A DNA stretch of 64,000 nucleotides from Candidatus Poribacteria bacterium (GCA_965198235.1 OZ240248.1:2528001-2592000), one strand, 5' to 3'. Positions 21,588-36,955 are shown, counted from the first letter of the stretch. Program-made: numbers and translations. The notes: generated by a model from the sequence alone, not told the origin.

Positions 21588-24500
21588 CTATCTTTGAGAT
21601 AACTCGTTGTGATATTCTTCCCCAAGGTGTCTGTGAAATATCCCGTGCTGTTGCGTCGCAATATAAAGTCTGTCATTGCTGATAACGAGAGAGAGAACTT
21701 TATCAGGCACACTCGGAGAGATTTGCTCCCAGCGTCCACCCGTATCTAAGCGATAGACACCCATCTCGCCAGCACCATAAACCGTCATGGTGTCCACAGC
21801 AAACCTGTCCATGACGATACGCTCACCCATTCTATCGGTTAGCACGCGCCAGGATTCTCCGTTCTGTGAAGTCAAAACACCTTTGTCGGTGGCGACATAA
21901 ACCATTGAACCCGCAAAGACGATCTCGTTGAAACCAGAAAAGCGGAGTGGAAGACTCGATGTAATATCTCTCCAGCTGTTTCCACTATCAAATGATTGGA
22001 ACAGTCTACCTTCCCGCTTTCCCACGTAGACGGTTTCCGCTGAAACTGCTAACTTGAATCCTTTTCTCGAATCCTCACTCGACTGTTTACCGAGATCTAT
22101 AAGTCCTATGTTTGTCCATTCCGGATCGCCAGGTTTCCATTTGAAAAGCCTTCGTTGATGCTCTATGTAAAAAGTTTCACCACTAACTGCAAACCCACCG
22201 ACTTTTGCAAAGGACGCAATATAGGACAATGCCTTTCTTAACTTAGGATCTTTTTCCATATCATTAGGCAAGTAGATTTCTTCTGCCTCTGCTATAACTG
22301 TTACCAGTTCGTTGGACAGCATTTCTCCTTTGAAAGCGGGTACTTCTTGAATAGGAGCGAGTACATCACCCTCTACAGATAGACGAAAAACACGCAGATT
22401 GTATTTTTCAGGAATAATCCCATAAAGACCTCCATCTGCACTCACTATCTTTGAATTATAAGAGAAATTGATGTGAGAACGCCCCTGTTCGATTGGTTCA
22501 AATGTCTGTTCATTGGTATCAATGCGAACACTTTTCCATGATTCACCACCGTCGGTTGATTGGACAATATCACTACCCGTATGGTACATAGAGCTTATTG
22601 TTGAAAGTTACCAAACCCTGCATCCTCGTTCCCACGATACCATTCGTAAATGGATGCCATGAGGCACCAGCATCGATCGTGCGATGAATTCCAAACTCCC
22701 CGGCTCTGTAGAAAGTATTTTCATCAACCGCTACAACTGGAAAGATATTCTGTTTCACTGAATCTGTGTCTAATCCTAAGTTCGTCCATATCTGTCCCCC
22801 ATCATTTGAACGGAAACTGAGGACGGCATCTAAGACCAAAAGCCTCTTACCAGAAACCAAGATTTTGACACTACGCGGTGCCCGCATGACAGAAGATTCA
22901 TTTTTAGGTGTTATCTCAGCCCATGATTCTCCTAAGTCGGTTGAGTGGAAAATCTTCCATGGGGGTGTCTTGTCTTTACTTACTATTTGTATCGCATACT
23001 TTCCACCTGTTTTGGGTGGTCCTAATACAAAAGGATCGGAGCCCATTCCAACATAGAGATTGTTTCCCATTTTTGCTAAGGAGTGGACTGCATTGGATAC
23101 GTCCACCGGCAATTGCTCCCATACATCCGAATTAAGGCGATAGAGACCTTCATTTGTGCCAGCAAACACTGTATTTCCAACTGTAGTTACTGCATAAATG
23201 CGTTTGCCCGACAATCCTTCGTTTAAAGGTGTCCACTGCTTGCCACCATCTATAGAGTGAAAAATACCATTGTCTCGTAAAGCCAAATACATTGAAACAA
23301 GACCTTGCGAACTGTTCTCTTGTGTTTCACCCCTAATAACGAGTCCAACGGCATGTCCTTTCGGACGGGGAGCTAAAGCGTTCCACGTCTCTCCATTATC
23401 AATTGAAGTAAACACTTGATTAGGATAGACGATATAGAGCACGCCTCTATGCTCAGTCATGGGCATTCCGAATCCTCTGATGGGTGTGTTAACATCGATC
23501 GGTGTCCACGCAGCTGCATCTGCTGTCAATCTGTAGATATTGGTTGACGTAGTGGCATAGACTGTGCCGCCAGATGTAGCAAAGATTTCAAATACAGGGC
23601 TTCCTTGTGGTCCACTTGCCTGCGTCCATTGCGAGGTAGAGGATCTGAACGAATTGTTCTGCGTATTCGGTGCCAAGACCTTCTCAGAAGTCCGCAGACC
23701 GACACCAGTATTTTCGCTCAGGGCAACATCCCTGCCAGTCTGCGTTCGCACCGCCGATTTTGAATCAATAGCAAGGGTAATCGGTGTATCAATGATTTCA
23801 ATCGTGGGTTCAGATAGTGCCTCAAAACTATACGGCTTTTGAAAACGGAGGAGGTATTGATTGCTTATACCCAGCATCAAGAGGAATACTAATACTGTCG
23901 CTGTCCCAAAGGCTACCCACGGGAGCAAGGGTTTCCCAACCGGAGGCGGTATTGGCTTCATCTCAGCGACTTGCCGCATAATGTTCTGCGTCAAACCCGT
24001 GGATATATGCACACCGCCGAGAACTTCCTGAACCAAGAGTTCTTCTTCCTGTTCTAAACGCTTTCTCGCACGCTGAAGTCGACTCGTAACGGTGTGCACT
24101 GACACACCTAAAAATTTGCCTATTTCTTTGGACTTCATTCCACCGAGATAGTAGAGCGTTATCACAGTGCGCTCACTCTCTGGCAGTTTTTCCAGGAGAT
24201 TTTTTACGAGGCGATAGCGACGCTCAGTCGCTTCTGCCTCTCGCTGCTCTAACACATAGTGGTTGTAAGAGGAGTGTTCGATTTCTTCCATTGGGGTGGA
24301 TGCCAGCGATTGCATCTTAGATTTGGTCCGTTGAATCCAATTAATGCAGAGCCGATTCGCAATGACATACAACCATCCGGCAAACTGACTTGGCTCCTTT
24401 AGGGTCGAGAGGTTTTTATAGGCGTTTAGGAAGGTGTCTTGCGTAATCTCTTCAGCATAGTGAAAATCGCCAATCTTTCGCCACACGAGCGCGTGGATAC

Positions 24501-24591
24501 CCTTCTGATACTTTTCAACTAAAGTACTGAATGCCGTGTCATCACCAGCCAAAATTTGGTTGATTAATTGAGCATCATTTTCTTGTTTCAT
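21588..24591 (-). pseudogene. ECF sigma-70 factor fused via a TM helix to an Asp-box beta-propeller; +1 frameshift near 22585
   Basis: AEEITQDTFL..W/IANR and LPESER...SRLQRARKRL sigma regions, TM helix, S.D.G.SW repeats; LYV|HTGSDIVQS continues in ORF 21588-22589 after one extra C. Confidence 0.8.
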
Positions 24592-24955: not shown

Positions 24956-25621
24956 CTACTCAGGCTCCCATCGGAACTTCGTTTCCCGTTTTCCGCCGAT
25001 ACTTTCAAGTTCTTCACTAATTTTCATTGTCTTTTCAATGAGAAGGTGCTCATTACTGATAGTCTCAACGTTGAGTCTCAGTAAAGGCTCGGTATTGGAT
25101 TCTCGGAGGTTGAACCGCCAACTGTCATACTCCAGGCTATCAGAATCAGATGGGCAACCATCTGTGAGAAACCTGACCGATAAACCGTCAATTGGTGTTT
25201 CAATGCAAGGATGGTTTCCCAAAGAGCGTACCGTCTGTCGGATCATTTCCATTGCGTCTTGGATATGCTCACAAGTTTCAAGCGAGAAGTCAGTTACGAG
25301 AACATCACCATTCAGCACAAAAAACGGAAAGGTGTGGATATGCTTCATAGCGTTGAAGATCGCACCGCCTGTGCCGAGTTTTTTATTTTCTTTGGCGTAG
25401 CGGATGTGCATACCTTCGCGGTAGACCCCAACGTGTTCACAGAGCAGATTATGCAGATGCCCCGAAGCCAAAATAGTCTCTTTGACACCTACCTCTTTTA
25501 GCAAATTCAGTTGCCAGTCTAAGACAGAACGTCCACCAATTTCCAACAGGATTTTTGGAATTTTTTTGCTGAGGTTTCCGAGTCGCGTCGCTAAACCGCC
25601 ACACAAAATAACTGCTTGCAT
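24956..25621 (-). pseudogene. Deletion chimera: NDP-sugar pyrophosphorylase N-terminus fused to phosphomannomutase C-terminal domain
   Basis: AVILCGGLATRL...PK, LGTGGA, VLNGD, then abruptly DGLSV..WRFNLRESNTEPLLRLNVE. Confidence 0.75.
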
Positions 25622-25955: not shown

Positions 25956-26213
25956 TTAGGATGGCACACATACACTATCTGAGTGTATACAAGTCCCCCC
26001 TGAATTCCACTTTGTACACCAAACTACGCAAACTTCTCCTTCGTCGCAAACCACAGTGCAACCAACACTGGCACTAACCGGTGTAGTAAACATTATTTCG
26101 GTTAACAAGAAACTCCCAATTCCTACAGTTAACACCAGCGGTGCCTTGACACCAGTTTTGCCTTCCTCAGATTGCAAAAATGTATGAATCTTACGACGTA
26201 GATTTTTCTTCAT
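25956..26213 (-). CDS. Small peptide with conserved leader and Cys-rich core (precursor A, 6 Cys)
   Basis: RBS AAGGAGGTG; leader MKKNLRRKIHTFLQSEEGKTGVKAPL shared with two paralogs. Confidence 0.8.
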   Translation of the reverse strand: MKKNLRRKIHTFLQSEEGKTGVKAPLVLTVGIGSFLLTEIMFTTPVSASVGCTVVCDEGEVCVVWCTKWNSGGTCIHSDSVCVPS

Positions 26214-26381
26214 TCGAGTTCACCTCCTTTCTCTTATCAGTACTTTCATTTCCAGAATGAACAACTTCCATAAGAGAACAGACCTTCTGGAAATGCTTGA
26301 AAACAGATACAATCTCAGCAGTTCTAACATTTTGAATAATATCACTGCTAAAGTGTTTTCAAGGTGATTAAATCTAAAACA

Positions 26382-27383
26382 TTATTTCCTTTTCACTTCT
26401 GCCCATTGTGTGGTTAGCAACTGCGGGCGGGGCGATACAGACAATGCATACGCCGGATCAAACCAACTCCCGAGATGGTGCGCGAAGCCGACATGTGTCA
26501 GTTGTATCGGCTCTCCACCATTGAGTGCGATTTTGAATACTTGTAGGCGAATAGGTCGCACAGCATCAACATCATCTGCCTGAACATAAAGCAGCTCTTC
26601 TCCATTCGGAGACCACGTAGGGTTGACAGCTCGTGGACCCGCTTCATCAATAACTTGTTGGAGACCCGTGCCGTCACGGTTTACAACATAAATTGTCTCT
26701 CTCTCAAAATCCTCACGTCGAAGTTCAACTCGATTCACCCACGAAAATGCGACTTTGTCGCCACCTGGAGACCATTCAGGAGACCGGACCCACATTGGGG
26801 TTTTGGGGAAACGGAGGAATGACTGTTTTTTCGTCTGAATGTTGAGCAAACTGATACGTCTCGGTTTGTCAACGGCTCCACTGATATAGGCGATTTCCGT
26901 GCCATTGGGAGACCAGGTAGGTGTGCCACCAATAGCCACCTGCTCCTCCTTTCCTCCATTTATCGCCCCGATGTACAAGAACCACGCGCCACGCTCAAAC
27001 CGAGAATAAGCAATCTGTTTCCCATCTGGAGACCAAGTTGGAGACCCTCTATCCGCTGATTTTTCAAACACCTGTTGGACGTTTTCACCATCTGGATCCA
27101 TCAGATACAGGTCCCAACCCTCGCCCCGATCTCGGTCGGAAGCAAAAAGAATCTGTTCACCAGTGGGAGAAAAAACAGGTCCAACATCATCTGCCTTGTG
27201 CTTTGTGAGATTCACCTGTTGTGTGCCATCTGGATTCATAATGTAGATATCTCGATTACCGTCTCGGTTTGCCGCAAACACAATTTTGGCAGTCGCCGGT
27301 GCTTTCCCTGACACTAAACAAGTATTCGCGCTTAACAATACAAAATTTAAGAAAAACAGTAGGAAAAAATGTTGACGTTTCAA
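26382..27383 (-). CDS. Secreted TolB-like (PD40/WD40) beta-propeller
   Basis: Signal peptide, repeated PTWSPDG; tail WFDPAYALSVSPRPQLLTTQWAEVK. Confidence 0.85.
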   Translation of the reverse strand: MKRQHFFLLFFLNFVLLSANTCLVSGKAPATAKIVFAANRDGNRDIYIMNPDGTQQVNLTKHKADDVGPVFSPTGEQILFASDRDRGEGWDLYLMDPDGENVQQVFEKSADRGSPTWSPDGKQIAYSRFERGAWFLYIGAINGGKEEQVAIGGTPTWSPNGTEIAYISGAVDKPRRISLLNIQTKKQSFLRFPKTPMWVRSPEWSPGGDKVAFSWVNRVELRREDFERETIYVVNRDGTGLQQVIDEAGPRAVNPTWSPNGEELLYVQADDVDAVRPIRLQVFKIALNGGEPIQLTHVGFAHHLGSWFDPAYALSVSPRPQLLTTQWAEVKRK

Positions 27384-27611
27384 GGGAAATCCTCCGAAAG
27401 CGGAAGGGGTTCAATTCCAAACCATATCGTCTGAGTCTATACTCCCCATCGTTCAACTGATGATACAGCCCCTCCTATTAAAAATCGTGGAAACTCCAAT
27501 GATTCTGCCTCCACCTCCAAATCATTTTAAGGTCGTAAAAAAATTGCAGTCTGGAATGCTGGAAATGTTGCTCAATAATATGCCAACACTTCCAGCAAAC
27601 ACTTTAATCAT

Positions 27612-27838
27612 TTAGCCACTTACACAAGTACCTACTGGATCACAGAGATTAGGCGGGTGCTTGCACTGGTTATTATCCATACAAGGTTGTGCCGCCGCCT
27701 CTGGTGCTCCAACAATAACCTGTGCAAGCAGGATACTACCAGTCGCAACGCCGAGGGTCAATGGGGATTTGACTCCCACTTTGCCTTCCTCGGATTGAAC
27801 AAATTCGCGGATTTTACCACGCAAATTTTTTTCTTCAT
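27612..27838 (-). pseudogene. Precursor B (4 Cys), frameshifted in an A7 run right after the ATG
   Basis: RBS AAGGAG then ATG at 27838 is out of frame with NLRGKIREFVQSEEGK...; homopolymer at 27826-27832. Confidence 0.7.
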
Positions 27839-28049
27839 CTTGTTTTTTCTCCTTTCTGCCGGTGCTTCTACTCCAGCAAGATTGGATTCCCAACTCTGAT
27901 TGGGAAATCCATTTCCAAGACGAATACTATCGCTACGGGAGTGAAGCCTTTCCCTTGGAAATGCTTGAAAACAAATATAACTTTAGCAAATCTGAGATCT
28001 TGAATAACATTACTACCAAAGTGCTTTCAAGGCGATTAAATATAAAACG

Positions 28050-29027
28050 CTATTTCTTTTTTACTTTTCCCCATTGTGTGGTTAGCAACTGCGGTTGTGG
28101 TGAAACCGGCAAAGCAAACGCAGGATCGAACCAATCGTCGGGAACATTCCAGATACTAATATCTGTCAATTGCTCAACCTCTCTCCCGTCCAATGTAATT
28201 TTGAAGACGTGTGTCTGTCTTATCTGTTTTAAACGTCCTCTATAAACGAGCGCGTCTCCACGTGGTGACCAAACCGGTGCAGCAGCACCCACACCAGGCT
28301 CACGCACAAGTTCTTGGAGACCCGTTCCATCACGATTCAGCGTATAGATCTCCCCTTCATCTTGAGGTCGCTTTTGATGCCACATAAAGGCGAGCCTGGT
28401 TCCGTCCGGTGACCAAACAGGCTCTCTCGCTGTGCTGATGTCATCGGGTGGGAAAAAATGCTTCTGTTTTCGCGTGCGGACGTTCAGAATATATATGTTC
28501 AGGCGGTCAGGTGCTACCCTGACGACATAGGCGATTTCTGTCCCATCCGGAGACCAATCGGGTGTGCCGCCAATCGCCACGCGTTCCTCGTTTTTCCCAT
28601 CACTTGTGGCGATATAGATGTACCCTACACCAGCATCAAAGCGTTTGTAAGCGATCTGTTTCCCGTCAGGTGCCCAAGTTGGATGTCTTCTATCCGTTGA
28701 TTTTTCAAATACCCGTTGGGTGTTTCTACCATCCGGATCCATCAGATACAGGTCTGAGCTTCCAGGAAACCTATCCCGATTCGAGGCAAAAAGAATTTGC
28801 TCGCCAGTGGGTGAAAATACGCCACTAACATCAGCTGCGCGATGATTGGTTAGATTTGTCGGTTGGCTTCCGTCCGGATTCATTAGATAGACTTCCATAT
28901 TTCCATCACGGTATGTGCTAATGATGATTTTTGCAGTTTCGGGTGCTTTTGCTAAAAGAGGGCAAACACTTGTAACTAACAGTGTGAAGTTAAAAGCGTA
29001 AGAGAGAAGCAATAGCGTTCGTTTCAT
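28050..29027 (-). CDS. Secreted TolB-like (PD40/WD40) beta-propeller
   Basis: Paralog of 26382-27383; tail WFDPAFALPVSPQPQLLTTQWGKVK. Confidence 0.85.
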   Translation of the reverse strand: MKRTLLLLSYAFNFTLLVTSVCPLLAKAPETAKIIISTYRDGNMEVYLMNPDGSQPTNLTNHRAADVSGVFSPTGEQILFASNRDRFPGSSDLYLMDPDGRNTQRVFEKSTDRRHPTWAPDGKQIAYKRFDAGVGYIYIATSDGKNEERVAIGGTPDWSPDGTEIAYVVRVAPDRLNIYILNVRTRKQKHFFPPDDISTAREPVWSPDGTRLAFMWHQKRPQDEGEIYTLNRDGTGLQELVREPGVGAAAPVWSPRGDALVYRGRLKQIRQTHVFKITLDGREVEQLTDISIWNVPDDWFDPAFALPVSPQPQLLTTQWGKVKKK

Positions 29028-29261
29028 GAAAAATCCCTCCTTATTTGAGAGCGTAATTCAGATCTGTTAGAAGAAGTATGCCATGGATCAATCCAAAGAG
29101 CTATGGCTTCGTCAGATTTATCTTGACGATTGGCAGTTTACTACACAAGATGCCCGCATCAAACCTAAACGACTCTATTCGTCAACAGATGGTTGACAAA
29201 GCACTAGCGTGTCGTGGCAAAATGCTATCACGCCCTAGGCTTATCTCTCAGCTTCCCTCAA

Positions 29262-29495
29262 TTAGGGAGTTTCGCAACTGCCGTGGTGTTCTAAGCAGTT
29301 AAAAGGAAAAATATGCTTACAATCCTCATCATCGTCGCACGGTGCTCCCGCCTCAACAGGTGTTGTCCCAACGATTGCGTTTGCTAATAGAACACTACCC
29401 GTCGCTACACCAAGCGTCAGCGGTGCTTTGGCTCCCACCTTGCCTTCCTCAGATGCGAGGAACTCACGGATTTTACCGCGAAGATTATTTTTCAT
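29262..29495 (-). CDS. Small peptide with conserved leader and Cys-rich core (precursor C, 4 Cys)
   Basis: RBS AAGGAG; MKNNLRGKIREFLASEEGKVGAKAPLTLGVATGS leader. Confidence 0.8.
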   Translation of the reverse strand: MKNNLRGKIREFLASEEGKVGAKAPLTLGVATGSVLLANAIVGTTPVEAGAPCDDDEDCKHIFPFNCLEHHGSCETP

Positions 29496-29696
29496 CTTAG
29501 ATTTTCTCCTTTCTGCCGGTGCTTCTACTCCGGCGAGATTGATTTCCCAACTGAAGTTGAGAAACCCATTTCCAGGGCGAATACTATCGCTACGGGAGTG
29601 AAGCCCTCCCCCTGGACATGCTTTCTAATGGCTTTTCAAAAGGCTTATCATCTTTGTTGGTTGTTTGAACGGTGTTATCCAATCCGTGCCTTGTAA

Positions 29697-30230
29697 TTAT
29701 TGGCACGGTGTTCCACTTGCACGCAGGAGTTGATTGGCTTGGAATTGATGTCCATCAACGAAAATCGTCGGAGAGGCACGAACGCCGAGTTCCGCAGCGC
29801 GCTTGATGTTTTCTCGGAAAAGCTGTTCTGCTTCCGAACTGTCAAATAATTCCTGAATCTTCGCCACATCAATGCCGAGTTTCTCTGCACACTTTTCCCA
29901 ACTCTTGTCCAATTTCTTGCCCCGACACAAAATGTAGTCGAGGTACTTCTCAGGATACTCTTGTGCTATCAGGAGTTGTCGGATGTTTTCCGCTACTTCG
30001 GGATAACCGTGAAGGCTCGTAAACGGTGTTATGTCTTGTGCGGAAGGTTCCGCCTTCTCCTGCGCAATAAATTGAAGTTTGAAGTCGATTTTATCACCAA
30101 ATTCCTTCACGATCGGAATAATCTTTTCTTCCGCTTGAACGCCATAAGGACAATAACTCATGACAAAGAGTTCCAGTGTCGGTTTTCCCATACGTGCCGT
30201 GCGAGAGGTCAAGAGTTCCTCCAAGTTCAT
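29697..30230 (-). CDS. DsbA/thioredoxin-fold domain (probably the C-terminal part of the upstream cytochrome gene)
   Basis: LELFVMSYCPYG, LGVRASPTIFVDG; in frame with 30234-31163 across one TAG. Confidence 0.65.
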   Translation of the reverse strand: MNLEELLTSRTARMGKPTLELFVMSYCPYGVQAEEKIIPIVKEFGDKIDFKLQFIAQEKAEPSAQDITPFTSLHGYPEVAENIRQLLIAQEYPEKYLDYILCRGKKLDKSWEKCAEKLGIDVAKIQELFDSSEAEQLFRENIKRAAELGVRASPTIFVDGHQFQANQLLRASGTPCQ

Positions 30231-30233
30231 CGG

Positions 30234-31022
30234 CTATCGGCTATGGTCGACATCCTTGGTATGGAGTGTCACCACCTCTGCGAACCCCGGGGAATGTTTA
30301 GCGTCGTGGCATTGCAAACAGAGACCTGTATCCGCACCGCTACGGATGTTGCTCTTTTTCGGATTGCCCACGTGCTGTTTGCCAGGACCGTGACAGGTCT
30401 CACACTGCACGCCTTTGAGCGTTGAATCCTGATCGCCTATCTGAAAACCCGTTGAATAACCGAGTCCAGTGGCATGGCAGGAGACACACCCTGCATCGAA
30501 ATAGCGTTCTTTTTTTAGAAGGGTTTCATAGGCGAAAGTGTGACGCGTTGCTGACCATTGGAGGTATTCTTGCTGATGACACCGCTGACACGCCGTCGCC
30601 GAGACATACCCGTTTTGTGGGTCTCGTTCCAAATGTTGGTTCGCAAACAGAGGTGTGCGGGTTCTTCGGTCTTGGGAGATCTCTTGGTAAAAGTCAGTTA
30701 GCAATTGACGCACCGATTCGGATTCCTCTACATCGCCTGTTAATGACAATGGGGTCGCGTAATGGCGTGTGAGTTCTCCATCTGAATCTATCCAAAGTGC
30801 TAAAAATCCTAACGTTTTGCCTTCAGGTTTGGAGCCAACGTAAAGCGTTCCACTCTCAGACTTCGTTATTTCAAGTTCGTCGGGCTGGATCACGACATCA
30901 ATGTGCTTCGACACTTCGACATTGCCCAAAGCCACAACAACATCTGCTTGTGATACTGCTTGCTCCTGGACGACATCAGCGACAAAAGCAATTGTCCGCT
31001 GTCCAACTTGTTTGATAAGGTG
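30234..31022 (-). pseudogene. 5'-truncated tetraheme c-type cytochrome (c554-like) with a UshA-like remnant
   Basis: CQRCH, CVSCH, CETCH, CLQCH; plausible sequence begins near HLIKQVGQRTIAFV, upstream belongs to another gene. Confidence 0.7.
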
Positions 31023-31450
31023 AGCGTCTCTAATTCTGCATCCTTTGCCAAGTGTATCAGAAGTTGGTAGCGATTTAGATTTGTTACGTAGTCCAGCGAT
31101 GTTTTCTCTTTCGTAAAGTGAAACGGCACCAATAACTTCGGTTTCCGATTCTCCTGTTTCCAACTGTCGGTGGTTTGCTCCACCGCCCCATCTATTGGAC
31201 TTAAAAGTGAGCCTTGCTGTCCAAGCCGTTCCAAGCGTTCAATCCCGTCAAAGATAGAGGTGATCTTATATTTTTCCTTGAGCCCTTCAACGATCTGGTA
31301 TTCCGTCTGAGTCCCATAGCGATCCAGAATCTCCCATTCCACATCATTAACCTGAATGATGTCGTTCGTCTCAAGGTCTGCGACATATTTGCGACCCCCC
31401 TGTTCAAATTTATGGTGACGGTTCAAGCGGTAGCGCGTGTGAAATGCCAT
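31023..31450 (-). pseudogene. 3'-truncated protein with RRE/PqqD-like N-terminal domain and start of a glycosyltransferase domain
   Basis: HKFEQGGRKYVADLETNDIIQVNDVEWEIL + helices, resembling the N-terminus of peptide-modifying radical SAM maturases; TNLNRYQLLIHLAKDAEL aligns with TNMALSYIFQHLTKYADL of the adjacent GT. Confidence 0.6.
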
Positions 31451-31475
31451 AATTAACTTTGCTCCCTTCTGGTAT

Positions 31476-32819
31476 TTAAGCGGTTGCATGGATTAAGCCG
31501 CGAACCCTTTTGAGAATCGCCTTTGCTTCTGCTTCATCCTCGATTAAATCAGCAAGAAGTGCCTCAACTTCTCTCGCAGTATGGTTTTTCAGGAGAGTCA
31601 TCACGAGTCCTTCTTCAACACGCTGAGAATAGAGTACATCTCCCATCAGAGAGCGTTCATAGTGTTTGTTCATACCCAATAGAATGGACTTATATTTTAG
31701 GTGCCGTTGTTCTGAATCTGATGCTTCAATTTCGGTGGCAAAAACATTCAAAAGCCCATTTGGACTAACGAGCTGTCTTTTTCGATGGAGTTCCTCAAAG
31801 AATTGGATAATGCGGCGTGCGGTTTTGTCCCATGTAAACGACAATGCGCGTTCTCTCGCTTTTTGAGAAAGTGCCTCCCGCATCTCATCATCGTTCAACA
31901 GCAGATTAATCTTCTCTGAGAAGTCTATGGGTGATGGATAACTCACGAGTGTTCCTATATCGCTATTAAAATTATCAGCGTCCGCAACCAAGCCTGCATC
32001 TCCAACGACTGAAGGGACACCATCAAAGTCGGGAACGATAGGCGGAACGCCACACGCCATTGCCTCAAGGACTGTCAAGCCGAAGGTCTCCTCACCTGAC
32101 ATTGAAAGGAAACAGTAAACATCAAAAGCGTTGTAGACGAGAGGCAACTTCTCGCGCGGATGGAATCCTGCGTAGACGAGATTATCAGGGAGCTCCCTTG
32201 ATTGATACCTTCCGAAGTGCGGTCCTGCGATTAAAAATAGTAGGTGTGGATTTAGCTCAGCCAGTTTTAAGTAAACGGACGCACCTTTCTCAGACTGCAC
32301 CCGCGAGAGGTAACCGACCGTCGGGGTTGTCATGATTCGATCGTCTCCAACCTCCTCAGCAAGTTCTTTTTTTGCTGCTTCTCTGTCCATTGGACAGAAC
32401 AACGCCGAATCTACGCCGTTGGGTAGGGTGTTGAAGAAGCTCGTGTCCCAGACGTAATCTGCGTAGAATTCACGAACATAATCCGATGGTGCGGTGAAAG
32501 CATCAAAATCTCGCATCGCCGCGTAATGCCGCAGCATAGAATTGATCGCTTTGCCACCATGCCCGCGCGGAGCATGGCATTGCACAAGCATCGGCGGCAG
32601 TTCCGTATACTGATAAAGCGGTAGAAGCCACGTTTCATGGTCGCGATGTAGCGTGAGAATGCCGAAATAGGTTTCGTTAATACTTCGACTCAGTCTGCCG
32701 AAGTCACCCACGCTTATATCAACTTCATGGACGTTATCGGCTAATTTTCGATTTTGGTTGCCAGCAAAGTGGAGGTCTGCATATTTGGTGAGGTGTTGAA
32801 ATATGTAAGAGAGTGCCAT
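31476..32819 (-). CDS. Glycosyltransferase family 4 (GT-B), possibly N-terminally truncated
   Basis: LPNGVD, SRVQSEKG, EETFGLTVLEAMACGVP, FTWDKTA. Confidence 0.88.
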   Translation of the reverse strand: MALSYIFQHLTKYADLHFAGNQNRKLADNVHEVDISVGDFGRLSRSINETYFGILTLHRDHETWLLPLYQYTELPPMLVQCHAPRGHGGKAINSMLRHYAAMRDFDAFTAPSDYVREFYADYVWDTSFFNTLPNGVDSALFCPMDREAAKKELAEEVGDDRIMTTPTVGYLSRVQSEKGASVYLKLAELNPHLLFLIAGPHFGRYQSRELPDNLVYAGFHPREKLPLVYNAFDVYCFLSMSGEETFGLTVLEAMACGVPPIVPDFDGVPSVVGDAGLVADADNFNSDIGTLVSYPSPIDFSEKINLLLNDDEMREALSQKARERALSFTWDKTARRIIQFFEELHRKRQLVSPNGLLNVFATEIEASDSEQRHLKYKSILLGMNKHYERSLMGDVLYSQRVEEGLVMTLLKNHTAREVEALLADLIEDEAEAKAILKRVRGLIHATA

Positions 32820-32853
32820 GTTCGTATCCGTTGTAATTAAAACTTCTGAACTA

Positions 32854-33852: not shown

Positions 33853-33972
33853 GTGGGATGTGTCTATATCTTGAAGAATCCGGCTATGCCTGACTTGATA
33901 AAAATCGGACATACAAAAAGAACGGCTCGTGAGCGTGCAAATGAACTCTACACGACAGGTGTTCCAGAACCA
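33853..33972 (+). pseudogene. T5orf172/GIY-YIG protein N-terminal fragment
   Basis: GCVYILKNPAMPDLIKIGHT.R...RA.EL.TTGVP.P, truncated by a transposase fragment. Confidence 0.75.
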
Positions 33973-34402
33973 ATGGTAAGAGGTTGGCAACTGAGTCAAC
34001 ACTTGACACAATCTCTCACATTGAGACCGTTACAACAAGCATTACGTCAAAGCGTTCCAGAGATTCACCATAGTGACCAGGGCGTTCAGTATCTTTCAAC
34101 CGCCTATATCTCCATTCTCACCTGTCATGGGATTGAGATTTCATTAGCGCATAGGGGGCGTCCTTGGGAGAACGGAAACCATGCGGAAAGGCTTATCCGA
34201 ACTCTCAAGGAGGAAGAGGTTCTCCTCAATGAATATGATGATATAATGCAGGCTAAAGCGCGCATCGGGCATTTTATCGGACACGTGTATAACCAGAAAC
34301 GCCCTCACTCGGCGTTAGGGTATTTGACACCTGTTGAATTTGAGAAACAACGCTTGTCTTAACTTTACTGATTTCTGGTCTAAATTAACGGTGGCACTTC
34401 AG
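33973..34402 (+). mobile_element. Truncated IS3-like DDE transposase with right end
   Basis: HHSDQGVQY, PWENG..ER..RTLKEE, YN.KRPHSALGYLTP; end ...GGTGGCACTTCAG. Confidence 0.8.
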
Positions 34403-34462: not shown

Positions 34463-35482
34463 TTATTTCCTTTTCACTTCTGCCCATGTTGTGGTTAGCA
34501 AATGTGGCTGCGGTGAAACCGGCAACGCATACGCCGGGTCAAACCAATCCCCACCAGCATTCGCTTGAAAAACACCTCCAATATGTGTCAACTGTGTCCG
34601 AACCCCGCTGCTTATATCCAGTTTGAAAATCTGTAGAGAACCATCAATTTTTTGTGTATAAAGGATTTCTTTGCCATTCGGTGATAACTCAGGACTCGCT
34701 GCCATCGGACCCGCCTCATCGACAAGTTGTTCGAGACCGGTACCATCGCGATTGGCGATATAGATTGTTCGTTTATCAGTCCATCCCTCTGGTAGCTTAT
34801 CGCCCCGCTTGAAGTCTGGCGGCAATGGGTTGTTATTCCAAGTGAAGGTGATTTTGTCCCCCATAGCAGACCAAGAGGGCCTCATTTGGCCCCCCAATTC
34901 TTTTCTCGGTAGGATCCGTTTTTGCGAACCTGTGTGAACGTTGATGAGTGTTATTCGGCCATCTTCAAGAATCGTACAGGCTATTTCCGCACCGTCGGGC
35001 GACCACGCTGGATGCAAACCATTCGCTAAGAAATTCTCTTCTTGTTCTTCTAAGTTCGTAATGTGGATGGCGTATATATCTTTATCCCAGTTGATGTGCA
35101 TGTAAGCGAACTGTTTAGCATCTGGCGACCATGTTGGATAATCCCGATAAGTGCTGCTTCTCTTGAGTTCTTTCTTGAAGAAGCGTCGGATATTGGATCC
35201 GTCAGGAGCCATCAGATATAGGTCTCGCTTACCGTCGCGATCGGAGATGAACAGAATCTGCTCACCGGTCGGAGACCAAACGGCGTGTAGATCGTTTGCG
35301 GGATGTTGTGTGAGTCTCATCTGTTCGCTACCATCAGGGTTCATGATGTATACTTCGCGATTACCATCTCGTGCGGAGGTGAACAGGATTTTAGGGGTTG
35401 TCGGTGCTTTCGCGAAAACCGGAGAGACGTTCGCGCATAGTAGCATCACACTGATTATGTAAAAGAGGCGTATACGTTTCAT
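34463..35482 (-). CDS. Secreted TolB-like (PD40/WD40) beta-propeller, third paralog
   Basis: AKAPTTPKILFTSARDGNREVY, WSPDG repeats; tail WFDPAYALPVSPQPHLLTTTWAEVK. Confidence 0.85.
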   Translation of the reverse strand: MKRIRLFYIISVMLLCANVSPVFAKAPTTPKILFTSARDGNREVYIMNPDGSEQMRLTQHPANDLHAVWSPTGEQILFISDRDGKRDLYLMAPDGSNIRRFFKKELKRSSTYRDYPTWSPDAKQFAYMHINWDKDIYAIHITNLEEQEENFLANGLHPAWSPDGAEIACTILEDGRITLINVHTGSQKRILPRKELGGQMRPSWSAMGDKITFTWNNNPLPPDFKRGDKLPEGWTDKRTIYIANRDGTGLEQLVDEAGPMAASPELSPNGKEILYTQKIDGSLQIFKLDISSGVRTQLTHIGGVFQANAGGDWFDPAYALPVSPQPHLLTTTWAEVKRK

Positions 35483-35511
35483 CTGTATTCCTCCGATAGT
35501 TCTCCAAGAGA

Positions 35512-35584
35512 CTGAAGTGCCAACGCTTATTAGGGCCAAAATTCCGTAAAGTTAAGACAAGTTTTTTCGCTCAAACTCAATAGG
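35512..35584 (-). mobile_element. Second, inverted right-end remnant of the same IS3-like family
   Basis: CTGAAGTGCCA...GTAAAGTTAAGACAAG matches the reverse complement of 34354-34402. Confidence 0.7.
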
Positions 35585-36483
35585 TTAGGACTTACGCAGT
35601 CTGTATTTTTAGAGTCGGTGATTTCAGTTGTTGACATAAATATTCAGAGAGTAATCCATGCTTGACTTGGTAAAGGGTTTGACGGGTTTCATGTGCTTTA
35701 CGCATCAGGTGAATCCACACCAAAAACGCAGCACTGATGTGATTGCGAACAATACGCGGTAGACGACATTGGCATTTTTCAAGTCCTGTCAACTGTTTGG
35801 TTTCCCGATGAAATTGTTCAATCTTCCAGCGGACGTCGCACACCTGTCGGACGACGGACACATCGGATTGACTCAAGTCGTTGGTCACAACATAATCCGT
35901 GCGTCTTGAAGACGCTACCCGGAAAACTTTCACCTTGTGATTTTTCGGAAACTTGTTGAGTTTGACGCGTTTGCCAGAGGTCTGTTCAGCGGGCGTCCAC
36001 TGGAGAGTGTCAATGCGTTGGTAAGGTTTGCTACCCTGAGAATCATCAACGAGACGATTCGATTTCAATGGACAATAATACGTCTTGTCCAGACTCTCAA
36101 TGTAAAGCAGTAGCGATTTGCTGGCATACCACGAATCCATCAACACTGTCGAAAAAGCAACATCGCGAGAGTCTACCAACACCGAGAGCATCTCTCGAAC
36201 ATGATCCAACTTCGATTTACCGGCGCCTTGTTTATCGTAGATGCGATAATCTATCAACCCATATCGGTCTAACGCAGGATTGACGTAGACACACGTCACA
36301 ATGCCTATACCGTTTATCGTTTTCCCAGCGTTGCCGCTATATTGGTGTTTCGCCAAGGCTATCTCTTTGGCATACCGTTTGTCTAAGACGGTATCATCAA
36401 AGATCAGACACCCATCCGGGGTCTGCTCCAAGTGGGATTTGACATGTTCCCAGACGTGGCGGGGTCTGAGACGGTCATTTCGC
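35585..36483 (-). mobile_element. IS701-family transposase, 5'-truncated
   Basis: IFDDTVLDK, QYSGNA, VLMDSWYA, RWKIEQFHRE.KQLTG...CQCR; end TTAGGACTTACGCA; N-terminus missing. Confidence 0.85.
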
Positions 36484-36955
36484 CATCGGATGCTCCTTTC
36501 AGTGAGAGTGGTATTATACCATAATCTTGGTTTAGACTGTGGCCCTAATTTCCGATGGCAGTACACGTTGCGAGTAGTGTCTATTTCTATACAACGGTAT
36601 CTGCAAGGTTCGTTCATTATCAGTTAGAATCTTCTGTCTCAATTATTGGTTCTTACAAGATCCTTGACGCACAGACTGCCGAACTCGAGCAAGCGGATAA
36701 CTTTACCACAACGCATGAATTCAAAGCGGAGTGGGGACGGTTTACAGAGGACTCAGACGCATTATACAGGAATGACCTTGGCCTCGCATCGCGTGATGAG
36801 GCACATCTCCCTGTTGAAGAGATTATGGTGCTTGAAGCGTCGAACGAACTGGCTCGCGAACTCGCTGGAGCTCTGAAAGCGTACGTGCGATAATCTTAGA
36901 TCCTCCTGCATCCTGCCGGACGTTTCAAAGCAAAACATCTATGGCAGAAAGATCA

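What the first reader, a model, noticed from the sequence alone, without database searches (positions are those of the whole stretch)
25956..32819. Candidate new RiPP/secreted-peptide system: conserved-leader Cys-rich peptides alternating with TolB-like propellers, beside RRE-like glycosyltransferases
Seen: three small paralogous ORFs share a leader of about 48 aa (MKxNLRxKIxxFxxSEEGKxGxKxPLxLxVxxGSxLL...A) followed by unrelated cores with 4-6 Cys (SVGCTVVCDEGEVCVVWC...; QPCMDNNQCKHPPNLCDPVGTC; GAPCDDDEDCKHIFPFNCLEHHGSC). They alternate with paralogous secreted PD40 propellers (C, TolB, B, TolB, A on the minus strand). Upstream on the same strand are a GT4 glycosyltransferase, a truncated paralog with an RRE/PqqD-like N-terminus, a tetraheme cytochrome and a thioredoxin-fold domain. 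Established: a constant leader with a variable core plus RRE-bearing enzymes is the RiPP signature, and known glycocins use GT2 (SunS-type) enzymes rather than GT4. Inference: a diversified family of glycosylated and/or disulfide-bonded exported peptides with cognate propeller partners (receptor, immunity or chaperone). I do not recognise the leader as any named RiPP class.
Basis: partly seen in the sequence, partly recalled or inferred. Interest (0 to 1): 0.9.

Follow-up and report, generated by a model that had tools for sequence, protein, structure and literature searches.

The report
Exported cysteine-knot peptides with propeller partners
A sponge-symbiont (Poribacteria) gene cluster encodes a family of small exported cysteine-knot peptides that share one almost invariant address tag, each paired with its own TolB-like propeller protein; in relatives they sit beside peptide-binding sugar transferases and a membrane protease, but in this genome those enzymes are broken.

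Summary
Three small genes (plus a fourth elsewhere in the genome) share a 49-residue leader and alternate with TolB-like PD40 propellers. Two corrections: the cores are not unrelated (shared frame C-x5-C-x5-7-C...G[TS]C), and peptide B is frameshifted in an A7 run.

The family is confined to Candidatus Poribacteria: 66 of 176 genomes, and 92 representatives among 1.84 billion proteins.

Intact clusters in relatives run: two GT4 glycosyltransferases, each with an N-terminal RRE; then peptide/propeller pairs (1-7); a methyltransferase; an A24-type membrane peptidase; a UshA-like/tetraheme/DsbA-like fusion; more pairs; NDP-sugar genes; and an ECF sigma fusion. The RRE fold is confirmed by modelling and Foldseek.

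In this window the cluster is a wreck. Both GT4s, the cytochrome/Dsb protein, the NDP-sugar genes and the sigma factor are truncated, fused or frameshifted, and the peptidase survives only as a fragment at a second locus.

One genus has a minimal peptide-propeller-peptidase-cytochrome/Dsb cluster with no GT at all. Glycosylation therefore looks like an accessory layer, not the core of the system.

Best reading: exported disulfide-knotted peptides with a dedicated maturation route, RiPP-like glycosylation in most lineages, and a cognate propeller partner. No chemistry is shown. This scan had already noted the family in another genome (e1-4339556). My literature searches found no description.

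The parts
25956..26213 (-). Peptide A: terminal 6-7-Cys subtype, last peptide before the NDP-sugar genes, not followed by a propeller
   Evidence: The same subtype sits at the same position in relatives. An RNA-library contig covers 26078-26269 with 0 differences.
26382..27383 (-). PD40 (TolB-like) propeller 1, with signal peptide and C-terminal TTWG-type tail
   Evidence: PF07676 E = 4.8e-27. TIGR02800 scores 150.7 bits against a cut-off of 343. Tail.
27612..27838 (-). Peptide B: 4-Cys core. The ATG at 27836-27838 is out of frame because of an A7 run at 27826-27832
   Evidence: DNA contigs of X1 and X4 keep A7. One RNA-library contig of X6 has an extra A that restores the frame.
27839..27953 (-). 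Conserved structured 5' leader upstream of peptide B
28050..29027 (-). PD40 (TolB-like) propeller 2
   Evidence: The closest solved sequences are TolB, propeller part only.
29262..29495 (-). Peptide C: 77 aa, 4-Cys core
29496..29610 (-). Conserved structured 5' leader upstream of peptide C
29700..30233 (-). DsbA-like C-terminal part (residues 446-623) of the UshA-like/tetraheme/DsbA-like fusion, cut off by a TAG where relatives have Ser
30237..31028 (-). Tetraheme cytochrome part (residues 179-444) of the same fusion; the first 178 residues are missing
31010..31450 (-). Remnant of GT4-2: an intact RRE domain plus the start of the GT-B fold (residues 10-156 of about 550-575). The deletion/rearrangement junction lies at about 31010-31028.
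31479..32837 (-). Remnant of GT4-1: the catalytic GT4 with its EX7E motif, lacking the N-terminal ~126 residues that carry an RRE-like domain in relatives
34463..35539 (-). PD40 propeller 3, separated from the cluster by IS remnants
24956..25621 (-). Chimeric remnant: the N-terminal half of a sugar-1-phosphate nucleotidyltransferase joined to the C-terminal end of a phosphomannomutase/phosphoglucomutase
   Evidence: These are intact as two genes in relatives.
21588..24591 (-). ECF sigma / TM / BNR-Sortilin propeller fusion, split into two ORFs by a frameshift at 22573-22589
   Evidence: It is intact (~990 aa) in relatives.

Best explanation
The region is a decayed copy of a Poribacteria-specific cluster that makes small exported, disulfide-knotted peptides.

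Each precursor has a 49-residue bipartite leader:
- a conserved, positively charged N-region of about 24 residues containing the motif F-x-x-S-E-E-G-K-V-G-x-K;
- a hydrophobic stretch of about 20 residues;
- an AxA-type site just before the first Cys.
A 20-40-residue core follows, with the frame C-x5-C-x5-7-C...G[TS]C.

Inferred pathway in intact clusters:
1. In the cytoplasm, the RRE domains of two GT4 paralogs bind the N-region. One paralog keeps the EX7E motif. The other has lost it and is probably a substrate-holding partner.
2. The active enzyme glycosylates the peptide, using an NDP-hexose made by the cluster's nucleotidyltransferase and phosphomannomutase. A methyltransferase may add a further mark.
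3. The hydrophobic stretch takes the core across the inner membrane.
4. A dedicated archaeal-type A24 (GxGD-like) membrane peptidase and/or signal peptidase I remove the leader.
5. The periplasmic UshA-like/tetraheme/DsbA-like fusion forms the two or three disulfides.
6. The folded core is bound by the TolB-like propeller encoded directly downstream. That propeller carries the phylum's TTWG C-terminal tag.
An ECF sigma fusion and a structured 5' leader before each peptide gene control expression.

Shown: the gene content, gene order, domain folds and families, motifs and distribution.
Inferred: every biochemical step.

In this genome only the peptides (A, C, D; B frameshifted), the propellers and the methyltransferase are intact. 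The glycosylation and dedicated processing steps cannot run here.
For: - Family and leader/core anatomy.
- Purifying selection on the leader: for example, the invariant Gly18 uses four codons and Pro25 uses four.
- Peptide-propeller pairing: 98 of 130 leader ORFs in 42 loci are followed by a propeller within 1.2 kb. Six lie at a locus edge. Twenty-six are not followed, most of them the terminal subtype before the sugar genes. Both peptide loci of this genome show the pairing.
- Conserved order across 42 loci. Number of loci holding each member, lower bounds because flanks are 10 kb: propeller 40, GT4-1 27, GT4-2 33, A24 24, methyltransferase 31, cytochrome/Dsb 26, PMM 23, ECF 20.
- RRE: NF040492 N-terminal matches on both GTs. 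Model and Foldseek agree: CteB 5wgg_A E = 1e-4, 30% identity, rmsd 1.1 over 72 columns, then TbiB1, lasso B1, McbB and PqqD.
- Genome co-occurrence among 176 genomes: both 55, peptide only 11, RRE only 4, neither 106. Related genomes are not independent.
- A second GT pair type sits before a different leader subtype in 2 loci.
- GT4-1 keeps EX7E in 28 sequences; GT4-2 has lost the first Glu in 25 sequences.
- A24: 12 of 12 members match PF01478 and 11 of 12 match PF06819. The motifs T-D-x-K-x-x-K-I-R-N and S-P-G-D-S-K-L are invariant. The gene is also present in the GT-less minimal clusters.
- An AxA-type site precedes Cys1 even in the most distant members.
- RNA-library contigs cover peptides A, B and C.
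Against: - No modification, cleavage site, export or binding has been observed.
- GT-less clusters exist: 4 loci in 3 genomes. Ten peptide-bearing genomes of one genus lack the RRE. Glycosylation is therefore not required for the family.
- In this genome intact peptide genes persist with both GTs, the A24 peptidase and the cytochrome/Dsb gene broken.
- The A24 assignment rests on sub-threshold Pfam scores (24.8 bits against a cut-off of 26.5). There is no match to solved sequences at E <= 1, and the model was poor (pLDDT 52).
- Many propeller paralogs stand without a peptide: about 10 of 15 close paralogs in this genome, plus tandem arrays of 4-5 in relatives.
- The DsbA-like domain of the window reads C-P-Y-G, not CxxC.
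- RNA-library contigs do not prove transcription.
Confidence: 0.5

Rival explanations
1. The peptides are plain secreted or periplasmic cysteine-rich peptides. The leader is only an unusually conserved Sec signal peptide with a long N-region. The peptides are not modified beyond disulfides, and the neighbouring RRE-GT4 enzymes act on something else.
For: - The leader has n-, h- and c-regions and an AxA site.
- Minimal clusters without GTs exist.
- 11 of 66 peptide-bearing genomes show no RRE.
- This genome keeps its peptides while the GTs are broken.
Against: - Two RRE domains, a hallmark of peptide recognition, sit directly upstream of the first peptide in nearly every GT-bearing locus.
- The GT pair type changes together with the leader subtype.
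- The N-region is conserved far beyond what Sec needs.
- A dedicated A24-type peptidase is kept in all cluster forms.
Confidence: 0.25
2. The peptides are pilin-like subunits with a class III (prepilin-type) signal. The A24 peptidase cuts after Gly18 or Gly21, and the peptide stays as a hydrophobic helix with a small cysteine-knot head, either in a filament or anchored in the membrane.
For: - The A24-type peptidase is the most constant enzyme of the cluster.
- The invariant S-E-E-G-K-V-G-x-K lies exactly at the cytoplasmic edge of the hydrophobic stretch.
- It resembles the Flp prepilin site; that motif is recalled from memory, not taken from any call.
Against: - No Flp_Fap match at E <= 1 anywhere in this genome, and none in Pfam scans of the peptides.
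- The peptide has Lys, not Glu, at the position five residues after either Gly.
- No pilus ATPase, platform or secretin gene appears in the cluster maps.
- A conserved AxA site before Cys1 points to release of the core.
Confidence: 0.1
3. The peptides are extracytoplasmic signals or ligands of a regulatory circuit. The secreted peptide and/or its propeller is sensed by the BNR/Sortilin domain of the neighbouring ECF sigma fusion.
For: - An ECF sigma/TM/BNR fusion ends the cluster in 20 of 42 loci, stands at both loci of this genome, and stands beside all four minimal clusters.
- A TolB-like protein has been reported as the anti-sigma factor of an ECF sigma in Thermoanaerobacter (PMC3397946; only its abstract in a search listing was seen).
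Against: - This genome has 8 full-length paralogs of the sigma fusion, most of them away from any peptide.
- Up to 18 hypervariable peptide copies per genome fit poorly with a single signalling ligand.
- Regulation by the sigma factor is just as compatible with the main explanation.
Confidence: 0.1

Closest known systems
Glycocins (sublancin / glycocin F type glycosylated bacteriocins)
   Same: Both have a ribosomal precursor with a leader and a small core held by two or three disulfides, a glycosyltransferase encoded next to the precursor, and a thiol-disulfide oxidoreductase in the cluster. The general glycocin features are recalled from memory. The abstracts of PMC12457901 and PMC6405829 were seen in a search listing.
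   Different: - Here the enzymes are GT4 (PF00534) with fused RRE domains, not SunS-type GT2.
- The leader ends in AxA after a hydrophobic stretch, not in a double glycine.
- No ABC transporter/peptidase was seen.
- An A24-type peptidase, a heme/Dsb fusion and a paired propeller are present.
- Glycosylation is not shown.
Bufferins (Sec-signal-peptide RiPPs; PMC11626156, passages read)
   Same: Both are Cys-rich precursors with an N-terminal signal-peptide-like leader. Both have an RRE-containing partner protein, an oxidoreductase in the cluster, a periplasmic destination and an ECF-type sigma factor nearby. The paper calls such signal-peptide RiPPs rare.
   Different: - No MNIO/DUF692 or DUF2063 gene appears in the annotated clusters.
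- The modifying enzymes here are GT4s.
- The leader has an extra, highly conserved 24-residue N-region.
- There are multiple hypervariable cores per cluster, each with a propeller.
GtfA/GtfB O-glycosylation of serine-rich repeat adhesins (recalled from memory, not tested)
   Same: Both have a tandem pair of GT-B/GT4-like paralogs in which one is catalytic and the other degenerate and substrate-binding. In both, glycosylation is cytoplasmic and precedes export of a protein with an extended signal peptide.
   Different: - The substrates here are 70-90-residue peptides, not large adhesins.
- Recognition is via fused RRE domains.
- No accessory Sec genes were seen.
- The similarity is by architecture only.
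Type IV / Flp prepilins and archaeal class III signal peptides with A24 peptidases
   Same: Both have a short charged N-terminus followed by a hydrophobic helix. Here an A24-family peptidase with the archaeal C-terminal domain (PF01478 + PF06819) is encoded in the cluster.
   Different: - No Flp_Fap match.
- No Glu at +5.
- No assembly ATPase or secretin in the cluster.
- There is an AxA site and a cysteine-knot core.
- The peptidase hits are below Pfam's cut-off.
TolB (Tol-Pal system)
   Same: The partner proteins are PD40 beta-propellers. Their nearest solved relatives are TolB propeller domains (E = 1.5e-16).
   Different: - TIGR02800 scores 146-156 bits against a cut-off of 343.
- TolB's N-terminal domain is absent.
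- There are about 15 paralogs per genome.
- They carry the TTWG C-terminal tag.

Membership tests
RRE-dependent RiPP | Short precursor with a conserved leader and a variable core | tested here: met
RRE-dependent RiPP | An RRE (PqqD-like) domain on a neighbouring enzyme | tested here: met
   NF040492 N-terminal matches. AF2 model with pLDDT 81.4; Foldseek top hits are CteB, TbiB1, lasso B1, McbB and PqqD.
RRE-dependent RiPP | The leader is bound by the RRE and the core is modified post-translationally | not testable with these tools
   Needs a binding assay and mass spectrometry. The only indirect support is conserved adjacency and the matching of GT pair type to leader subtype.
RRE-dependent RiPP | Precursor and modifying enzyme always co-occur | tested here: not met
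   55 of 66 peptide-bearing genomes have the RRE and 11 do not. Four GT-less clusters were examined. In this genome both GTs are truncated.
Glycocin | SunS-type GT2 glycosyltransferase | tested here: not met
   The enzymes match PF00534/PF13692 (GT4). Their nearest solved relatives are MshA, BshA and PimA.
Glycocin | Double-glycine leader with an ABC transporter/C39 peptidase | tested here: not met
   The leader ends in AxA. No such gene appears among the cluster ORFs listed and scanned.
Flp / type IVc pilin | Match to Pfam Flp_Fap and the G/XXXXEY processing motif (motif recalled from memory) | tested here: not met
   No PF04964 match at E <= 1 in the genome and none in peptide scans up to E = 10. 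There is no E-Y after either conserved Gly.
Peptidase A24 (cluster membrane protein of relatives) | Pfam PF01478 above its cut-off, plus two catalytic Asp motifs | tested here: inconclusive
   12 of 12 members match, but the member whose score was printed gives 24.8 bits against the cut-off of 26.5; best E-value among the 12 is 9.4e-6. 11 of 12 also match PF06819. The Asp in T-D-x-K..K-I-R-N and the Asp in S-P-G-D-S-K-L are invariant. No PDB sequence match; the model was too poor to search. In this genome only a 28-residue fragment remains.
Bufferin-type RiPP | MNIO (DUF692) enzyme with a DUF2063 partner | not tested
   I ran no search for these families. None of the cluster genes I scanned belongs to them.
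TolB | TIGR02800 above its cut-off, and an N-terminal alpha/beta domain | tested here: not met
   145.5-155.6 bits against 343.15. Only the propeller part of TolB aligns.

The most novel reading that the evidence does not exclude
This is a new RiPP-like class in which one leader is read twice. First, the fused RRE domains of a catalytic/degenerate GT4 pair read it in the cytoplasm. Then an archaeal-type A24 peptidase reads it in the membrane. The resulting glycosylated cysteine-knot peptides each pair with a cognate TolB-like propeller. The tandem, hypervariable peptide/propeller cassettes and the orphan propeller arrays would then work like polymorphic toxin/immunity (or ligand/receptor) sets among sponge symbionts.
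Probability: 0.2. Interest if true: 0.85.

Novelty: new variant of a known kind. Interest (0 to 1): 0.68.

Why it matters
If the inferred pathway holds, four things follow.
- It would add a peptide class defined by RRE-fused GT4 glycosyltransferases. Mining papers mention RRE-glycosyltransferase fusions only in passing: PMC7470986 and PMC12710340, which names only PF00535, i.e. GT2.
- It would be the first case I could find of a prepilin-type peptidase in a RiPP-like cluster. The review PMC10885120 has 0 occurrences of 'prepilin peptidase' in the listing.
- It would give uncultivated sponge symbionts a large, diversifying repertoire of secreted knotted peptides, up to 18 copies per genome.
- The one-peptide-one-propeller pairing would offer a testable recognition system.

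The window itself shows how such a cluster decays: the enzymes go first, while the peptides and propellers persist.

Tried and rejected
- Complex prediction of the RRE domain (alignment A2, residues 1-90) with the leader (A1, residues 1-50) gave no verdict: score 0.01 against a mark of 0.32, and the controls were not run. It says nothing for or against binding.
- The AF2 model of the A24-like protein was poor (pLDDT 52), so I ran no fold search on it. A profile search against PDB sequences found nothing at E <= 1.
- Pfam and NCBIfam give no family for the peptides.
- At E <= 10, 19 of 26 peptides touch DUF4342 (best E = 0.014). A few touch Dickkopf_N, Nodulin_late, EB, a conotoxin family or WAP, at E = 0.002-0.16. 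I treat all of these as composition-level resemblance.
- The ESM Atlas returned only unnamed Poribacteria clusters.
- Rfam finds nothing in the window.
- I considered a quinohemoprotein amine dehydrogenase-like enzyme (small crosslinked peptide + propeller + cytochrome; recalled from memory) and rejected it. The cores are hypervariable and no radical SAM gene is present.
- I considered gene conversion as the cause of leader identity and rejected it, because synonymous codons vary.
- Parts of the laid stretch without RNA-contig cover are not interpreted.
- Three literature searches found no description of this family. The library lacks most subscription journals, and no supplements were read.

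Full report
**What is in the window.**
Three small minus-strand ORFs share an N-terminal region of about 49 residues: A (25956-26213), B (27612-27893) and C (29262-29495). An HMM of that region, run without filters over all 98,636 six-frame ORFs of 30 residues or more in the 5.17-Mb genome, finds only four hits with E <= 1.2e-26. These are the three plus a fourth copy (D) at C1:960777-961259. The next hit has E = 0.65.

On the coding strand the order is C, propeller, B, propeller, A. Copy D is flanked by two further propellers.

B's real start is an ATG at 27836-27838, preceded by AAGGAG. It is out of frame because of a run of seven A.

The cores are not unrelated. An alignment of 26 members has four invariant Cys. 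Of 117 members, 99 have four Cys, 102 have G[TS]C, and the spacing C-x5-C-x5/6-C dominates.

**How wide the family is.**
- A word-indexed search found 250 proteins. Every source name is 'hypothetical protein' of Candidatus Poribacteria.
- A profile search that read all 1.84 billion representatives found 92 at E <= 0.001. Almost all are small proteins, so the leader is not a module of larger proteins. The most distant members keep the F-x-x-S-E-x-G-x-V/I-G motif, a hydrophobic stretch and an AxA-type site before a Cys-rich end.
- Among 176 genomes of the phylum, 66 carry the family, with 1 to 18 matches each, mostly in the window's own genus.
- Pfam, NCBIfam and the ESM Atlas give it no name.

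**The leader is kept by selection on the protein.**
Invariant residues such as Ser15, Glu16, Gly18, Pro25, Leu26 and Leu36 use two to four synonymous codons across 102 distinct genes. Gene conversion therefore does not explain the identity.

The anatomy is that of an extended signal peptide:
- a positively charged 24-residue N-region;
- a hydrophobic stretch of about 20 residues ending in Gly-Thr-Pro;
- small residues at -3/-1 just before Cys1.
I could not run a signal-peptide predictor, so this reading rests on the sequence alone.

**The intact cluster, seen in relatives.**
The search for related loci returned 42 loci. Forty-one are titled Poribacteria MAGs and one 'uncultured bacterium'. They hold 131 leader ORFs.

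Annotation with HMMER against the window's proteins and against intact homologues gives one recurrent same-strand order:
1. GT4-1 (about 575 aa).
2. GT4-2 (about 550 aa).
3. Peptide and propeller, repeated one to seven times.
4. A class I SAM methyltransferase.
5. A 378-aa membrane protein.
6. A 620-650-aa protein with a UshA-like metallophosphatase part, four CxxCH hemes and a DsbA-like end.
7. More peptide/propeller pairs.
8. A terminal 6-Cys peptide of the A type.
9. A sugar-1-phosphate nucleotidyltransferase.
10. A phosphomannomutase/phosphoglucomutase.
11. An ECF sigma / TM / BNR-Sortilin fusion of about 990 aa.

Of 130 plus-strand leader ORFs, 98 are followed by a propeller within 1.2 kb. 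Six lie at a locus edge. Twenty-six are not followed, most of them the terminal subtype.

**The RRE claim.**
- Both GT4s carry an N-terminal domain that matches the N-terminal part of ScfB/SCIFF-type radical SAM maturases (E = 8.7e-6 to 3.6e-4).
- An AF2 model of the window's own domain, built with 20 aligned relatives, has pLDDT 81.4 and shows strands followed by three helices.
- Foldseek against the PDB ranks CteB first (E = 1e-4, 30% identity, rmsd 1.1 A over 72 columns). TbiB1 and a lasso B1 protein, both solved with their leader peptides, follow, then McbB, cyanobactin heterocyclases and PqqD.
The fold test is met.

GT4-1 keeps the EX7E motif in 28 sequences. GT4-2 has lost its first Glu in 25 sequences. 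This suggests one catalytic and one substrate-holding paralog.

A second, distinguishable GT pair (633 + about 565 aa) is followed in two loci by peptides with a different N-region. That is what specific recognition would predict.

**How tight the link to the GTs is.**
Over the same 176 genomes:
| | RRE present | RRE absent |
|---|---|---|
| Peptide present | 55 | 11 |
| Peptide absent | 4 | 106 |
. Related genomes are not independent.

Ten of the eleven peptide-only genomes belong to one genus. In four loci of three of them the cluster is ECF sigma, then divergently peptide, propeller, A24-like protein and UshA/cytochrome/Dsb protein. No GT, methyltransferase or sugar gene lies within 20 kb.

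So the core of the system is peptide + propeller + membrane peptidase + heme/Dsb protein + sigma factor. The glycosylation set is an added layer.

**The membrane protein.**
- All 12 aligned members match Pfam Peptidase_A24; the one member whose score was printed is just below the cut-off (24.8 against 26.5 bits), and the best E-value among the 12 is 9.4e-6.
- 11 of 12 also match the archaeal A24 C-terminal domain PF06819 (best E = 6.6e-8).
- Two Asp-containing motifs are invariant in 25 sequences.
- A profile search of PDB sequences found nothing, and the AF2 model was too poor to use.
Membership is therefore likely but not settled.

The invariant S-E-E-G-K-V-G-x-K lies at the cytoplasmic edge of the hydrophobic stretch. 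That is where a prepilin-type peptidase would cut. However, the peptides do not match Flp_Fap, and the cluster has no pilus assembly genes.

**This genome's copy is a wreck.**
- GT4-1 lacks its first ~126 residues. A fragment of residues 4-44 lies at the second locus.
- GT4-2 stops at about residue 156. At window ~31010-31028 it is joined to residue 179 of the cytochrome/Dsb gene.
- The cytochrome/Dsb gene also carries a TAG where relatives have Ser.
- The A24 gene survives as a 28-residue fragment beside the intact methyltransferase at the second locus.
- The nucleotidyltransferase and PMM are fused into one chimeric remnant.
- The sigma fusion is split by a frameshift.
- IS remnants lie at 33853-34362 and 35592-36617.
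- Peptides A, C and D and all the propellers are intact.

**Reads.**
Contigs of two DNA runs keep the A7 run in B. One contig of a sponge metatranscriptome library (depth about 4), otherwise identical over 362 bases, has one more A, which restores the frame. RNA-library contigs also cover peptide A (0 differences) and peptide C. This is compatible with expression, and with either a strain variant or transcriptional slippage. Assembled contigs cannot decide between them.

**Regulatory RNA.**
The ~115 bases before each peptide ATG (except the A type) are conserved. The region derives in part from the 3' end of GT4-2. On 35 sequences, a five-helix structure has 93.6% of cells paired, against 29-53% when partners are slid. 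Eight pairs show changes on both sides, and 0 of 500 shuffles reach the observed number of such cells. Rfam has no match.

**Comparison with known systems.**
- The nearest kinds are glycocins (disulfide peptides with a neighbouring glycosyltransferase and oxidoreductase) and bufferins. PMC11626156 describes bufferins as rare RiPPs with a Sec signal peptide, an RRE partner and sigma-factor control (passages read).
- The defining enzymes of both are absent here.
- RRE-glycosyltransferase fusions are mentioned only generically in PMC7470986 and PMC12710340 (passages read).
- The propellers are TolB-like only in their propeller domain. They carry the phylum's C-terminal TTWG-type tail, present on 128 of 5,028 ORFs of 150 residues or more in this genome.

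**Earlier notes of this scan.**
One note describes the same peptide/propeller/GT/peptidase combination in another genome (e1-4339556). Others describe the TTWG tag.

**Verdict.**
The RiPP/glycosylation reading is partly supported for the family, but it is not operative in this genome. The function of the peptide-propeller pairs remains open.

Noticed in passing
window 26382-27383, 28050-29027, 34463-35539 and genome-wide: The propellers end in the tail ...L-x-T-T-x-W-G/A-x-V/I-K. The same C-terminal motif ends 128 of 5,028 ORFs of 150 aa or more in this genome, against 3 with the motif elsewhere in the protein. Earlier notes of this scan describe it as a Poribacteria-wide tag.
   Followed up: partly
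window 29496-29610 and 27839-27953 (minus strand); same position in L001-L042: A conserved ~115-nt 5' leader precedes each non-terminal peptide gene, with five helices and compensatory changes: 93.6% of cells paired, 8 pairs changed on both sides. No Rfam family matches. It is a candidate cis-regulatory or processing RNA.
   Followed up: partly
window 27826-27832: An A7 run puts peptide B out of frame. DNA contigs of two runs agree with A7. One RNA-library contig has A8, which restores the frame. This could be a strain variant or transcriptional slippage; it is undecided.
   Followed up: partly
window 21588-24591; C1:962928-965900 and six other places: A family of ECF sigma factors is fused through one TM helix to a BNR/Sortilin-like propeller (~990 aa). 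The genome has about 8 full-length paralogs. The window's copy is split by a frameshift at 22573-22589.
   Followed up: partly
window 33853-34362 (+) and 35592-36617 (-): Mobile-element remnants lie between the cluster and propeller 3. One is a T5orf172 N-terminus joined to an rve integrase core; the other is a DDE transposase. They fit the rearranged state of the cluster.
   Followed up: no
window 29697-30230: The DsbA-like domain reads C-P-Y-G where a thioredoxin-fold oxidase would have CxxC. In relatives the domain is fused to a UshA-like phosphatase part and four hemes, an unusual combination whose chemistry is unknown.
   Followed up: no
L008, L024, L034, L036 (relatives); C1:2067815-2069801 in this genome: Tandem arrays of two to five propeller paralogs occur with no peptide gene between them, some next to an ECF sigma fusion.
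   Followed up: no
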